Assembly (NCBI GenBank): GCA_001938485.1
Contig: MQRK01217482.1
Location: 3,811 to 67,810 of the forward strand
Direction of reading: 5' to 3'
DNA: 64,000 nt
Source of the DNA: Girardia tigrina
Taxonomy: Eukaryota
Under the pieces are notes generated by a model, which saw only the letters and a list, made by a program, of their open reading frames with translations, searched no databases and was not told the DNA's origin. Below are positions 4,492 through 54,900 of this stretch, piece after piece; position 1 is the stretch's first letter; each line of letters starts with the position of its first letter. Both the position numbers and the translations under genes were made by a program.

Positions 4492-5499
4492 TAGTTTTAT
4501 AAGATATAATTTCTGTACAATTTACAATTATAAGTTAGAGGCAAAAGAAGTATTTTATTTGGCCCCTGGCCGATTTTATATTAAGCAACCGAGAGCCTTA
4601 GCGACAACTCGGGTTGACTGGAGGTTAAGGATTTAATGTCACACTTTACAGCGTGAAATATATACGAATATAATAATTTAATATTATTTTATATTAATTA
4701 CTTTTTTATTTGTTATTTTTTCTCAGTAGCGGATTCATTTTTTTAACACCAAAAATTTATTTTTAAAATCCTGAAAATTTATTTCGAAAATTTATTTCAA
4801 AAATTATTTAAACTTTATTTTCAAAATTTATTTCAAAGTTTATTTAAAATTGCTTATTAAAAATATTTTTATTTATAAATACATATTTAATATTTTTGTT
4901 TTCTTGATATTTTTAATTTTAAGATATTTAGAGATACATTAAAGATATTTTTTATTTTTAAATAGATATTTTATTTTTATGATTTTAAGAATTCAATTAT
5001 AAATTATTTTTTAATGAGGATTTCCGTTGACAATTAACTTCAATAAAACATTATGATTTTTATTTTAGAACTTGATTTTAAAATATTCAATAAATTATTT
5101 TTTTAATAAAACTTTCCGTTGACAATTAAATTAAATTAACATTATGATGTATATTTTAAAATGTGTTACAAGATATATCAAAATTTTCTTTACAATATTC
5201 TTTTACTCTGAAACTGTTATTTAAATTGTAATTTTTTAAACCTATTTTTTTATAAAAGTTCTTTTAATTTAATTAATAAAATATTATCATTACACTATAA
5301 TTTTTATAAAAATTATTTCATTTTAATTTGTAAAAATATTATCTATACACTTAAATTTTTTATATATAATTTCTTTCAAAAGTTCTTTCAATTTAATTAA
5401 TAAAATATTATTTTTTAATTTATCTCAAATGTAATTATGATTTTTAATTTAAAAATATAAAAAATTTACAGTTCACCAAAAAGAACCCCTAACAATGAA

Positions 5500-6205
5500 C
5501 ATAAAACTGAACTATGTAAGCTCATCAACGAACTTAATCATAAAAGGCTGAAATGGACATTACACCTTCCCTTGAGAATTTCCGATACTGAAGTACAGCG
5601 AGGAACGAGGTAAGAAATTGTATTAAGAAATTGAAGTGGTGAAGGATGAGAAATCTAAACAATGTGATTGAAGAGGCCTTAAACGCCGGTAATTTCAATA
5701 AAAGTGGTACGGACTATCTTGAACTGCGTATTTTAAGGAATTCAGAGACAAAGTTATACACATTGTTTTCACCGGCACTTTCTGTGACCAATGAGCTCAT
5801 GTTTTGTCACTATCAAAAGTTCAATACCTTGGAGAATGCTGTGTTAGTGTTGAGTCTTCTGATGAGGCTGAAATAAAGCTTGCTATATCGCAGCTGAATA
5901 ATGGGAGGTCGCAAGATCAAATGGAGTAATTTCTGAAGTTTTGAAGTGGGATCGACAACCACTCATGGACAAACGGCAGCTTAATTTTGAACTGATATAG
6001 AACTGCTTTCATGAATTTCTACTGGCTTGAAGGAGTACTAAAGGGATGATAATATTCAAAGGAAAAGGTACAAGATCCGACCAGAAGAACTAGAGGGGTA
6101 TCTTTCTCTTAGAAATCACTGGTAAGGTTTTTGAGAGAATCATCGTAAATAGAATCCTACCAGTGATGGAAGAAAGACTGGACCTCTGGAAATTTGGTTT
6201 GAGGC
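5500..6205 (+). mobile_element. Non-LTR retrotransposon (LINE, RTE/L2/CR1-like) ORF2 RT N-terminal fragment
   Basis: Frameshifted translation gives SDEAEIKLAISQLNNGRS ... KGKGTRSDQKN(x)RGISLLEITGKVFERIIVNRI...FGLRP, the typical LINE RT domain 0-2 region. Confidence 0.75.
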
Positions 6206-6206
6206 C

Positions 6207-6540
6207 ATTAAGCGGCGTTTATGCCTCTTTCATTATTATCAAATTCAGAACTCATAATTTAACATCACAATTTATTAATATAACAATAATTCACATTTTT
6301 GAACAAATATTTTTGTTAATTCAATTATCTCGCTACAATTAATCTATTAAATTCTTTTCGATTCAATTTTTTAAAATTTAGCAAATTTATAACTTTAAAT
6401 TTATTAATTAATTTTCACATTAAAACTAAAAATTTATTTTAAAATTTATTTAAAATTGTTTCATAATTTCTATTAAAATATATAAATAGTTATGACTGTA
6501 AAAATATTTTTATTTATAAATAAACATTTAATATTTGTAG
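6207..6540 (+). repeat. Dispersed AT-rich repeat family B (possibly a second LTR family)
   Basis: Similar segments at ~4730-4960, 8281-8345 (begins TGTAAGTAGCGTTTACGCC), ~8950-9070 and ~46120-46450, e.g. shared AATTATCTCGCYACA-ATTAATCTATTAAATT. Confidence 0.55.
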
Positions 6541-46486: not shown

Positions 46487-47817
46487 CTTAGGCTGTCTAA
46501 TAAGTTCCCGGAATATGTCATGCACGTACATGCATAAATGTATACACGTAAATATTGTATTAGAATGAAGCCACCAATCAGCTGCTTTGGCCAATCATAG
46601 AGTCACACACTTATCCACTCTCTTCTCATTGTGACAGCCCATTATTGCTGCTAACATAGTTAAGGTGCACCGTTGACGCGTTATGGATTTACAGAAAGAA
46701 CTTTTTCGTGCATACATTTACTTAGAAATGCTACGGGGACGTAAACCATGTGAAATATATAAGCAGCTGCAAGATACTAACCTGGATATTCCTTCACAGA
46801 TAACTGTATTCGAGTGGTACAAACGATTTAAAGATGGAAGGCAATTCCTTGTTGATCATCCAAGATGCGGCCGCCCAACCACATCTTCAACCGCTGAAAA
46901 TATGCATATTATCAAAGCGATTGCGGATGAAGAACCAAGGATATCTCTTAGAGCAGTAAGTGAATCGACTGGCCTGTCTAAAGATACTGTTAGACAGATT
47001 TTCACAAATCAGCTTGAATTGCGAAAGATTTGTTCGACATGGATTCCACATCACCTCTCAGAAGCAAACAAACGAAACAGGATTTGGTGTGCTCAAAGCA
47101 TCATCGCCTTATTTGAAAACCATTCCATCGCTTATCTGTTACACCATTGGGCGACAGAGGATGAGAGTTGGTTTCTGTATGAAACAGCACTGACAAAACA
47201 GCATAATCAGGCATGGCGTCATCCCACCCAACCAAAACTCACTGTTGTCCGCCCGAAGCTAACAAACAAGAAAACTCATCTCTTGCTGGCATTCACTGGT
47301 GATAAAAAGATAAGTGCTGACATTTGCTCTCCTGGAGAGACTGTGAACTCAGAGCGTTATGTGGAATTTGTTCGTTCAACTGGGGAAAAATGGCGACATG
47401 TTCACAGACACCCAAAAAAGCTGACGAAATTGTTGTGGCAACACGATAACGCACGCCCTCACACATCAAAAGAAACAATGGAATTCTTTCATCATCGTGG
47501 AGTGACACTCATCAAACAAAGCCCATATAGCCCTGATATGAATCAGTGTGATTGATGGGTGTTCAAACACGTGAAACATTCATTTCGAGGGCAGAAATTC
47601 GTGGATGGTAATGAGGTGAAAGGAAGAGCGGTGCAGGTGCTCCGCGGTCTCCCTGAAGAGAAGTTTCGTCAAGAATTGTTATCATTGTATGAACATTGCA
47701 AACTAGTTGTAATTAATCATGGAAATTATATAGTTTAAATATAATATAGAATTGTTTGGAATTTTTCATAGAAGTCACTTTTTTAAACAATCCCGGGAAC
47801 TTATTAGACAGCCCAAA
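46487..47817 (+). mobile_element. Full-length mariner (DD34D)
   Basis: TIRs CTTAGGCTGTCTAATAAGTTCCCGGAAT / rc TTTGGGCTGTCTAATAAGTTCCCGGGAT, TA TSDs, 1331 bp long. Confidence 0.95.
46683..47738 (+). pseudogene. mariner transposase with a single in-frame TGA (47553-55)
   Basis: WIPHHL, TEDESW, HDNARPH, PYSPDMNQCD (D34D). The same frame continues WVFKHVK...NHGNYIV* to 47738. Confidence 0.92.
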
Positions 47818-48118
47818 TATATGAGGGGGTGAACAGACTTATGAATCATACTGTATATTAAACGAATCCGAAATAGACTGATTGTGTGATTGGGTTCACT
47901 CGGAATTAAAGAAGGCAGATGTCTTAACTAGAGTAGCCAAAAAATGGACAGAAAGGAAATGTTTTAGTGTTCAACAAGAGGGAAAATTAAATGAGGCAAG
48001 CATGAGTCACGAGCGACATCATTTTGGGATCGATAAAAGTCGTTTGATAGCAGAAAAAGAAGGTATTAAAGTTCTCAAAGGGGATTAGGAGAGTGTTGTT
48101 CGAAACTGTCAACGGTGT

Positions 48119-48459
48119 AGACCTCCTCCCCACCTGTGGCTACACATGATTGCTCTTGTGGCACTTACCCAGGGCTAATAGCTCATAGAACTTTTCAGAA
48201 GTTGAGCCGGTTGTATCATTGTGCAGGCAAACTTGCCTACCCTCGACTAATCATTGGCCCCGCCATTACGCGTTTCCATATTCCCGCTCAAAATAGCATA
48301 CCTTTGCGAGCCCTTGCCCTCCATACAATGTTGGTCAGCACCCCAACAAGGCAAGCTTCGGACACTTTAGCCTAGAGAAGAGAGTTCTAGTTTCCCAGGG
48401 ACACCGCGTGAAGGTATATCCGACTGGCTTAACACAGGTTACCTATTAAACAGGTCCTA
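48119..48459 (-). mobile_element. 341-bp non-autonomous non-LTR retroelement with 5' HDV-like ribozyme
   Basis: Flanked by GTCAACGGTGT (48108-18) and GTCAATGGTGT (48460-70). Removing the insert rejoins the integrase CQRC-xSIDP. About 50% GC, no long ORF on the ribozyme strand, 3' end ...GTGGGGAGGAGG. Confidence 0.8.
48358..48459 (-). ncRNA. HDV-like (nested double-pseudoknot) self-cleaving ribozyme
   Basis: Minus strand: P1 (ua)GGAC / J1/2 / P2 UCGGAUAU / P3 ACC / L3 UUCACGC / P3 GGU / P1 GUCCCU / GG (P1.1) GAAA / P4 CUAGA..UCUAG / J4/2 GCUAAA (catalytic C at 48370) / P2 GUGUCCGA. Confidence 0.8.
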
Positions 48460-49287
48460 GTCAATGGTGTTAAAGTATTGATCCGCTCCTATAAATTTAT
48501 CGGTAGAAAAATGTTGTGAAAGTTTGGCTATAGATCATACTCATTATAAAAATAGAGTATACTTATCAGAAATCGATAGTGGAACCAGTCGATTCTCAAT
48601 CTGGAGAGAAGTAAAAACTGAAGGAGCCGACAATGTAATAAAAATTTTCGATTAGTTATTTATGGAGCATGGAGCTTCCATAGAAATCTTTGTCAACAAT
48701 GGAGAAGCTTTTACAGATGACAAATTCAAAAAGTTTTTTTATTAAATGGAGCGTCAAGACCAATTATCGATGTGTACATAGACCAAGTACGAATGGTATC
48801 GAATATTGATATTGATGAAGCTGTGTATTGGTTTAATATTGGTCCTAAAAGAAGAAAAGATGGAATTAAATCGCCAAGTAATATATTATTTAACTACAAT
48901 TGGAGGTTAATAGGGGAAAAAATAAATGTGGAACCGATGAGTGACGACTGTAGTATGTGTTAAGCCGAATCAACATGTTCGATGTACAAGCCAATAGGGT
49001 CGTGACATAATCACTAAAAATTAGTCACAATAAATAGGAAGTATATGAAGTTTCGAAACTTATCCAGGATATCAAAAAACGATCTGACAATCAGAATAAT
49101 TCCAAAAACGAGCTTATTGGTGATTTAGAAAACAGTTTAAACGAGAATGAAGTAACTGATGAGGAGTCGAGTGTTGAAGAGTTTACAGATCAAATAGAGC
49201 GTGACGAGCAACGAAGAAGCAAACGAGAGAGAAGAAAACCACCGTGGCACAGAGATTACGAAATGGGAAACTGACTTCTGGCGGGGA

Positions 49288-49428
49288 TGTACTAATGTTG
49301 TTAAAATATACGAAATTAAATTTGTTTAAATACGTGATTAAAAGCACGAAAGCAGAATTTGAATTTCGTGTTACATTTCAATAAAATTTATTGTCGTTTA
49401 ATTGTGCCTTATTTATGGTGATATTACA
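49288..49428 (+). mobile_element. 3' LTR (141 bp) of the Gypsy integrase remnant
   Basis: TGTACTA...TATTACA termini after the PPT; AATAAA at ~49380. Confidence 0.75.
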
Positions 49429-54059: not shown

Positions 54060-54900
54060 AGAGTTCAAACCAGCTAAACTATATGGACTTATTAAAAGAC
54101 ATTAAGCTGGTCATCCACTTCGCCCTGTATTATCAATGATTGAGATTGTACAGTACAATATCGCAAAGGTTCTTGATTACTTATTGAGTCCCTTGATTTC
54201 TAATGAATTTGAGATCAGGGATAGCTTTGAATTGAAATATTTTATTTTGGATAAGATACCTAAATGCGATTCTGAATGTATGGTCTCATTTGATGTTTCC
54301 AGTTTATTTACGAATGTGTCCATTGACGAAACCATTGATTTGTATGAAAAATTATGGGATGATAATTCTGACTCTGTGAATGAAGTAATGAACAAAGACG
54401 TAAATAAATTCTAAACTTTTCTGCCAAAAATGTACCATTTCTTTTTAATGATAAATAATACATTCAGAAAGATGGTATCGCAATGGTTCCCAACTAGCAC
54501 CAATATTGTCATCAATTTTTATGAAGTCTCTTGAGGATAAAATTAATGCATACCCTGGGGAAATCCATGTGCTCTACAAGAGATATATAGATGATATCTT
54601 TTTTATTTTTTAAAACAATCCCTTATAGAACCATTCTTAACATTCTTGAATGGTCTTCATCCTAATATTAAATTTACTACAGAATCGGAAGTTCATAACA
54701 AATTCCTTTACTTCACATTCTTGTCACCAGAATGAATTGGAATTATTAAACTAAATTATACAGAAAGACAACAGATACATGTCTCTACACAACATTAAAG
54801 AGCTTTAGTGAGGAAACTTATAGAGAGAGTATGATAAATGTCATGATTTACAGAGTTTTGAATTTTTCTTCCAATTTTGAAACCGAAACCCCATGGTTTG
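54060..54900 (+). mobile_element. Penelope-like element (PLE) reverse transcriptase fragment
   Basis: LYGL.K.H..GHPLRPVLS; SFDVSSLFTNV; QKDGIAM; RYIDDIF; HPNIKFTTESE; YRKTTDT. Confidence 0.88.

What the first reader, a model, noticed from the sequence alone, without database searches (positions are those of the whole stretch)
48108..48470. 341-bp ribozyme-capped non-autonomous retroposon (SIDE / bipartite-RTE-like) inside a Gypsy integrase
Seen: an 11-bp TSD (1 mismatch), no TIRs or LTRs, no obvious tRNA-like A/B boxes, no poly(A), and a 3' end ...GCCACAGGUGGGGAGGAGG. The body has several hairpins (as read on +: CTTGCC..TGTTGG/CCAACA..GGCAAG; AGGCAA/TTGCCT; GCTC..AACTT/AAGTT..GAGC). Established: target-primed reverse transcription gives TSDs of this size, and short internally deleted derivatives that retain the 5' ribozyme and 3' recognition end are known for R2 (SIDEs), ingi/L1Tc (RIME/NARTc) and RTE. 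Inference: this is a Pol III-independent short retroelement that releases itself from read-through transcripts by self-cleavage and borrows a LINE RT. The LINE fragment at 5500-6205 shows such enzymes exist in this genome. It may be an undescribed family for this organism.
Basis: partly seen in the sequence, partly recalled or inferred. Interest (0 to 1): 0.72.

Follow-up and report, generated by a model that had tools for sequence, protein, structure and literature searches.

The report
Ribozyme-capped retroposon with 28S-like target
This 341-base insert is one decayed copy of a multi-copy, non-coding retroposon whose 5' end is predicted to fold into a self-cleaving ribozyme, and which lands on the same short DNA motif (matching a site in the 28S rRNA gene) as a group of LINEs that likely supply its enzymes.

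Summary
The insert is real. Window 48119-48459 (RNA sense is the minus strand) has an 11-bp duplication, and all 11 host paralogues examined show the empty site. It belongs to a ~350-bp family with fixed ends and mostly 11-14-bp TSDs (1,466 candidates). The 5' ~100 nt fit an HDV-like ribozyme fold, with compensatory changes across related elements; in this copy 2 of 6 P1 pairs are broken. Cleavage is untested.

Young copies land at GTGT-N8-TT^AC (G at -14 in 17 of 17). This matches a 28S rDNA site where family copies sit in tandem arrays with APE-RT-zinc-finger LINEs and other ribozyme-capped short elements. Those LINEs share the target motif, TSD size, part of the ribozyme core and a predicted 3' three-way junction, so they are the likely helpers. 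No LINE shares both ends in sequence, and the RTE label lacks a reference tree.

Verdict: works like an R2/R1 SIDE or a bipartite RTE derivative; a new variant of a known kind. No expression data were obtained.

The parts
48108..48118 (.). Target-site duplication, copy at the element's 3' side
   Evidence: single copy in 11 of 11 empty paralogues
48119..48459 (-). Short non-autonomous retroposon (family 'S'), 341 bp; family length about 350 bp
48358..48459 (-). Predicted HDV-like ribozyme. P1 5' strand 48454-48459 (2 of 6 pairs broken in this copy), structured J1/2, P2 48416-48423 with 48358-48365, P3-L3-P3 48403-48415, P1 3' strand 48397-48402, P4, J4/2 with the candidate catalytic C 48366-48371
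   Evidence: activity untested
48313..48355 (-).
48295..48312 (-). Remnant of a LINE 5'-UTR motif (family GCAATCCAC...AAAA), partly deleted in this copy
   Evidence: 17 of 17 nt match to family-B LINE L095; 9-mer also in BovB 5' UTRs in the PMC5786205 supplement
48119..48201 (-). Predicted 3' three-way junction (closing stem, 13-nt hairpin, variable hairpin) ending GGAGGTCT; likely recognition site for the helper RT
   Evidence: function inferred
48460..48470 (.). Target-site duplication, copy at the element's 5' side (1 mismatch)
47880..49290 (+). Host: decayed Gypsy-type pol/integrase region (limits approximate), many stops and frameshifts
5495..6282 (+). Decayed LINE fragment of the same RT clade as the likely helper LINEs

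Best explanation
The insert is a decayed copy of a ~350-bp non-coding retroposon family that likely frees its RNA from read-through transcripts with a predicted 5' HDV-like ribozyme and is likely copied into DNA by the enzymes of co-resident APE-RT-zinc-finger LINEs ('C' families). SHOWN: many copies with fixed ends and TSDs; an HDV-like topology; an insertion motif GTGT-N8-TT^AC shared with C LINEs; copies of both at one 28S rDNA site, in tandem arrays. INFERRED steps: (1) a copy in a transcribed region, plausibly a 28S gene, is co-transcribed; (2) the ribozyme cuts before G1 and makes the 5' end; (3) the C-LINE protein binds the 3' three-way junction; (4) the protein recognises GTGT about 11-14 nt upstream, possibly through its C2H2 fingers, nicks at T^AC and primes reverse transcription; (5) a second nick 11-13 nt away gives the TSD and regenerates a usable junction, so arrays build up. 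The window copy landed on a weak version of the motif in a Gypsy integrase and is probably dead.
For: Family: 1,466 candidates, 40 scored, all E<=5e-91, 81-86% identity apart from self. 63 unique insertions among 95 copies; TSD in 28 of 42 copies with both ends called, 24 of 28 being 11-14 bp. A young subfamily is 92-98% identical to a 28S-resident copy in most of the 30 loci compared. Ribozyme: in 128 kb of window strands my topology search hits only this element, and only with P1 mismatches allowed; the strict search passes in L005, L064, L088, L092. Related short elements H and LINEs B and C keep the fold with changed P1/P2/P3 pairs. The ribozyme is the best conserved part (commonest-letter share 0.92 against 0.85-0.87, 61 copies). 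Target: 24 dispersed older sites give G at -14 in 15 of 24 (p 4e-7) and A-rich -9 to -5. An independent set of 17 young sites gives G-14 17/17, T-13 14/17, G-12 14/17, T-2 16/17, T-1 17/17. C LINEs have G-14 in 7 of 7 non-28S sites with a TSD found, out of 28 rows (2 of the 7 are doubtful). S and C share a second hot spot, GIY-YIG codons that fit the motif (10 of 63 S copies). 28S: Rfam LSU flanks; arrays L092/L108 and L196. Of 25 3' junctions, 2 are S, 2 C LINE, 2 B LINE, 17 other short or unclassified families (E, F, H/G), 2 other, 0 intact. Helper: intact 1,241-aa ORF with EN, RT and zinc fingers; its sister family C1 has 11,777 candidates, many identical. The 3' junction is colinear in S, C and H; the outer two pairs of the 13-nt hairpin swap between S subfamilies (66 copies).
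Against: No LINE matches S at both ends. Among 80 endonuclease loci the best match is a 30-nt ribozyme core (83-87%) plus a 17-nt UTR motif from a different family, B, so the choice of C over B or an unseen helper is inferred. Rfam's HDV-type models do not hit. Overall folding is not above shuffles. The hairpin swap may be a single evolutionary event. Most copies are outside rDNA (1 of 25 young copies at 28S). The 28S flanks in the assembly are fragments of a few hundred bases, often followed by other DNA, so residence in transcribed rDNA units is not shown. No expression or cleavage data.
Confidence: 0.78

Rival explanations
1. Same element and helper, but 28S is only an incidental multi-copy match to a short target motif. 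Source RNAs come from any read-through transcript or an internal promoter, not from rDNA.
For: 20 of 25 young copies are dispersed and 4 are in GIY-YIG codons. C1 is very abundant and dispersed. 28S flanks are fragmentary. The GIY-YIG hot spot shows that any multi-copy match is used.
Against: At least seven element types pile up at one 28S junction. Several begin with GGGAT, like the end of the 28S duplication, and in B copy L175 the target supplies five of six P1 bases, as reported for R2 (PMC3774820 abstract).
Confidence: 0.35
2. S is a literal internal-deletion derivative of its own parent LINE, which is low-copy, unassembled or extinct; C LINEs are only cousins.
For: S carries a LINE 5'-UTR motif and ribozyme core but matches no known family along its length. 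The searches score only the top candidates in a fragmented assembly.
Against: None of 29 3'-motif loci is preceded by LINE sequence. None of 30 ribozyme-motif loci leads into a LINE ORF (12 of 30 checked by tblastn, 17 others matched the element to its end). A young S subfamily needs a recently active helper.
Confidence: 0.25
3. S is an ordinary Pol III (tRNA-derived) SINE and the ribozyme fit is chance.
For: The 5' end starts GGGGAC and can be drawn with small hairpins. No Rfam ribozyme hit.
Against: No B box within one mismatch; no tRNA call; full HDV-like topology with compensatory changes across families.
Confidence: 0.04
4. The insert is a MITE or a stray 5' UTR fragment.
For: This copy has weakly complementary ends.
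Against: The family has no TIR, has a fixed 3' end, 5'-truncated copies and variable 10-14-bp TSDs.
Confidence: 0.01

Closest known systems
[quoted passage not shown]
   Same: Short, non-coding, 5' HDV-like ribozyme plus a 3' recognition end; found at the helper's 28S site; hybrid SIDEs also use an APE-type helper (R1) with 14-bp TSDs.
   Different: The helper is neither R2 nor R1; the 28S site differs; most copies are dispersed at look-alike motifs; several distinct short families share the site; SIDEs are described as rare.
Bipartite non-autonomous RTE derivatives (RTESINE, RTE-N, Bov-A; PMC5786205, parts 1-3 of 5 read, supplement searched by terms)
   Same: No RNA-gene head; carries an RTE-like 5'-UTR motif; single-ORF EN-RT helper; that paper notes ribozymes at RTE 5' ends, citing Ruminski 2011 (not seen).
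   Different: No microsatellite or poly(A) tail; no LINE with 64-90% identity at both ends was found; marked target preference.
RIME / NARTc of trypanosomes (search listing, and passages in PMC5786205 and PMC6765202)
   Same: Short ribozyme-capped derivatives moved by an APE-type LINE.
   Different: Ingi clade; share a near-identical 5' hallmark with their LINE (recalled); not rDNA-linked in the passages seen.
LIN9_SM of planaria (PMC4640811, passages and S6 Fig part 1 of 3)
   Same: Targets the same stretch of 28S, 3-4 nt from the site found here.
   Different: NeSL-related (RLE type), autonomous, and inserted antisense to the rRNA; the elements here are sense-oriented and APE-dependent.
drz-Agam-2 type HDV-like ribozymes (PMC4908430, part 1 of 4)
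   Same: Nested double pseudoknot with a structured J1/2 insert and an ~8-bp P2.
   Different: No Rfam model match; activity not measured.

Membership tests
HDV-like ribozyme | Order P1-J1/2-P2-P3-L3-P1'-P1.1-P4-J4/2-P2', with 6-7-bp P1 and ~7-bp P2 (PMC4908430) | tested here: met
   Intact in L005, L064, L088, L092; the window copy has 4 of 6 P1 pairs
HDV-like ribozyme | Cytosine in J4/2 and pyrimidine-rich L3 able to pair with GG after P1 (recalled) | tested here: met
   GCTAAA with C kept in 87% of 61 copies; L3 TCCACGC followed by GG
HDV-like ribozyme | Match to a curated Rfam model | tested here: not met
   No match at E<=1
HDV-like ribozyme | Self-cleavage at the first base of P1 | not testable with these tools
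   Needs an in vitro assay
SIDE (Eickbush and Eickbush 2012) | Inserts at the helper's site with the helper's junction type | tested here: met
   Same motif, same 28S junction and 11-12-bp TSDs as C LINEs
SIDE (Eickbush and Eickbush 2012) | Built from R2 and/or R1 segments | tested here: not met
   Related LINEs are single-ORF EN-RT-zinc-finger elements at another site; it works like a SIDE but is not filed as one
SIDE (Eickbush and Eickbush 2012) | Co-transcription with 28S | not tested
   No reads could be examined
Bipartite non-autonomous RTE | 5' part derived from an RTE 5' end or UTR | tested here: inconclusive
   30-nt ribozyme core and 17-nt UTR motif shared with different LINE families; 9-mer also in BovB
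Bipartite non-autonomous RTE | 3' part alignable to the 3' end of the same LINE, with a poly(A) or microsatellite tail | tested here: not met
   Only fold and the terminal GGAGGCC are shared; no simple-repeat tail
Bipartite non-autonomous RTE | Helper belongs to the RTE clade by RT phylogeny | tested here: inconclusive
   Quick tree without labelled references; single EN-RT ORF fits; RTE-like protein motifs are recalled
tRNA-derived SINE (SINE2) | tRNA-like head with A and B boxes | tested here: not met

The most novel reading that the evidence does not exclude
An RTE-like, zinc-finger-bearing LINE lineage has independently evolved a bipartite preference (GTGT-N8-TT^AC) for a 28S rDNA site. 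It lives there by ribozyme release from rRNA co-transcripts and supports a community of at least five unrelated ribozyme-capped short parasites, S among them, that stack in tandem at that junction and spill out to look-alike sites across the genome.
Probability: 0.45. Interest if true: 0.76.

Novelty: new variant of a known kind. Interest (0 to 1): 0.56.

Why it matters
Ribozyme-capped short retroposons are known, so the element alone is a new family of a known design. The added value is the target biology. PMC4640811 places most target-specific non-LTR elements in the early-branched (RLE), Tx1 and R1 groups. My ten paper searches found no RTE-like group with 28S preference; Repbase, Dfam and most subscription papers were not searchable. 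If confirmed, this is a natural system for asking how an APE-type enzyme gains sequence preference (a motif 11-14 nt upstream of the nick, C2H2 fingers) and what minimal RNA (ribozyme plus three-way junction) it copies. S would be a ready-made 350-nt template for such assays.

Tried and rejected
Rfam search of the element: no hit. MFE z-scores: uninformative.
Parent LINE hunts: 3'-motif pattern (29 hits), ribozyme pattern (45 hits, 30 fetched), PF03372 (30 loci), PF14529 (30 loci plus 20 fetched of 149 matches). None shares both ends.
The classic RTE-like family A in this genome shows no similarity to S and forms a separate clade; rejected as helper.
Two copies starting at nt 180 are simple 5' truncations.
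A short internal reading frame is not kept in the young subfamily (seen); rejected as an ORF.
GIY-YIG copies as one insertion amplified by its host: rejected, because flanks and TSDs differ.
Other organisms: 0 of 80 metagenome relatives had 28S flanks, the zinc-finger signature or S similarity; these were distant (24-44% identity) and often had short flanks, so the test is weak.
Automatic segmentation failed for some families; only rows with sensible pairings are cited. Two of 31 rows (L018, L023) were mis-anchored and left in. The +1 A there is fixed by my anchoring, so only upstream positions count.
The tree is the quick method; the careful search did not finish.
Earlier-scan look-ups returned nothing.

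Full report
OBSERVATION. The window carries an 11-bp direct repeat with one mismatch at 48108-48118 and 48460-48470 around 341 bases. A search with the left flank gave 254 candidates; all 11 paralogues examined have the 11-mer once and no insert. Paralogue L238 shows RT, RNase H and integrase in Gypsy order, with weak Pfam hits below cut-off. There is no tRNA and no B box. The listed hairpins exist, but overall folding is not better than shuffles.

FAMILY. The insert has 1,466 candidate relatives in the genome; the 40 scored are 81-86% identical apart from self. Read on the minus strand, copies start GGGGAC and end GGAGGCCT. Pooling three searches and array loci gave 95 copies and 63 unique insertions; 28 of 42 with both ends called have a TSD, 24 of them 11-14 bp. 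5'-truncated copies exist. A younger subfamily with a different 3' hairpin is mostly 92-98% identical to a 28S-resident copy. I call the family S.

RIBOZYME. Rfam gives no hit. A topology search written from the HDV-like architecture (described in PMC4908430, part 1 of 4 read; details of the core recalled) finds only this element in both strands of the window, and only when P1 mismatches are allowed; it passes strictly in L005, L064, L088 and L092. The window copy has lost 2 of 6 P1 pairs. Related short elements (H) and LINE families B and C keep the fold with changed pairs in P1, P2 and P3; H and C also share the P4 base and J4/2. The ribozyme is the most conserved part of S. Cleavage is inferred, not shown.

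TARGET. While looking for a helper I found S copies directly after a LINE and directly before 28S rRNA sequence. The duplicated target is ACCACAGGGAT, near Rfam LSU model position 2825. From memory this is the peptidyl-transferase region, where group I intron site L2449 also lies. Of 25 exact 3' junctions in the assembly none is an intact gene: 2 follow S, 2 a C LINE, 2 a B LINE, 11 family E, 4 family F, 2 H/G, 2 other. L196 is an array: 28S, H (267 bp), a full C2 LINE (3,858 bp), H' (413 bp), then another element, each separated by the target. Dispersed S sites resemble the 28S sequence upstream of the nick, GTGTCAGAAAAGTT^AC. In 24 older sites G is at -14 in 15 and the -9 to -5 stretch is A-rich. 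In 17 independent young sites G-14 is 17/17, T-13 14/17, G-12 14/17, T-11 12/17, T-2 16/17, T-1 17/17. GIY-YIG codons, probably of Penelope-like elements, fit the motif and are a second hot spot (10 of 63; 4 of 25; translations). The window's own site is a weak match. Against an rDNA home: only 1 of 25 young copies is at 28S, and the 28S flanks are fragments followed by other DNA.

HELPER. Endonuclease searches revealed a classic RTE-like family A and a clade B/C/D (support 100 in a quick tree of 56 rows without labelled references). L090 holds an intact 1,241-aa ORF with endonuclease, RT and C2H2 fingers; sister family C1 has 11,777 candidates for its finger region. C LINEs end GGGAGGCCC before the same AC, use the same hot spots and show G at -14 in 7 of 7 non-28S sites where a TSD was found, out of 28 rows. 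Their 3' ends align colinearly with S and H as a three-way junction; the outer two pairs of its 13-nt hairpin swap between S subfamilies. But no LINE among 80 endonuclease loci matches S beyond a 30-nt ribozyme core (C) or a 17-nt UTR motif (B), and neither S end leads into LINE sequence. The UTR 9-mer also occurs in BovB 5' UTRs in the supplement of PMC5786205. The window's LINE fragment belongs to this clade.

MECHANISM. Most likely S is co-transcribed from a host transcript, trimmed by its ribozyme, bound at its 3' junction by a C-type protein, and reverse transcribed at a nick placed by recognition of the upstream GTGT. Copies, folds, motif and co-residence are shown; cleavage, binding, helper identity and rDNA transcription are inferred. 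Confidence 0.78 for the core, about 0.5 for rDNA as the source locus.

COMPARISON. It works like the R2/R1 hybrid SIDEs (PMC3414825, abstract and Discussion) and like bipartite RTE derivatives (PMC5786205, parts 1-3 of 5), but fails a defining feature of each, so it is filed under neither. LIN9_SM, an RLE-type planarian element, inserts antisense 3-4 nt from the same site (PMC4640811, S6 part 1 of 3). That paper places most target-specific elements in the RLE, Tx1 and R1 groups. A review table of TEs in rDNA (PMC10946416, section 8 part 1 of 3) has no occurrence of 'RTE' in its main text. Also seen: PMC3774820 (abstract); PMC8501958, PMC6765202, PMC13708176, PMC5035012, PMC6530143 (passages). 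Ten searches found no report of this system; Repbase and Dfam may hold it. No evidence for other species was obtained (0 of 80 distant metagenome loci), and no RNA evidence.

VERDICT. Observation confirmed; interpretation largely right but with no two-ended parent; a new variant of a known kind; interest 0.56.

Noticed in passing
L147-L204 (e.g. L196:194-4900, L202:164-487, L198:107 onward): At least five further short or unclassified element types (E about 300 bp, F, G/H 95-413 bp, K, and one starting GGGGCACGG) occupy the same 28S junction; H and K have HDV-like 5' folds close to that of S.
   Followed up: partly
L173, L174, L179, L184-L188, L193: Tandem repeats of about 215 bp, each containing the 28S sequence upstream of the target followed by AT-rich DNA; possibly a satellite derived from the junction.
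   Followed up: no
L090:3773-4600: A C2 LINE in 28S whose upstream junction lies several hundred bases before the usual site, i.e. a large target deletion with a truncated 5' end.
   Followed up: no
L149-L171: 28S tails after the elements end at varied lengths (about 60-400 nt) in unique DNA; they could be 3' transductions of rRNA co-transcripts. TSDs were not tested.
   Followed up: partly
L175, L176: A B-family LINE whose predicted ribozyme P1 takes five of six bases from the 28S target itself.
   Followed up: partly
window 46677-47740 +: Mariner-type transposase (Mos1 HTH hit) with one internal stop, lying just upstream of the integrase region.
   Followed up: partly
window 54106-54900 +: Decayed RT fragment that looks Penelope-like by recalled motifs; no Pfam hit.
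   Followed up: no
L012, L017, L224 (5' flanks of S copies): Three S copies have tRNA-like sequence at their 5' flank, by eye.
   Followed up: no
P0005-P0008, P0013: Distant homologues from other sources share the C-terminal finger motif of the helper LINEs; their insertion sites are unknown.
   Followed up: partly
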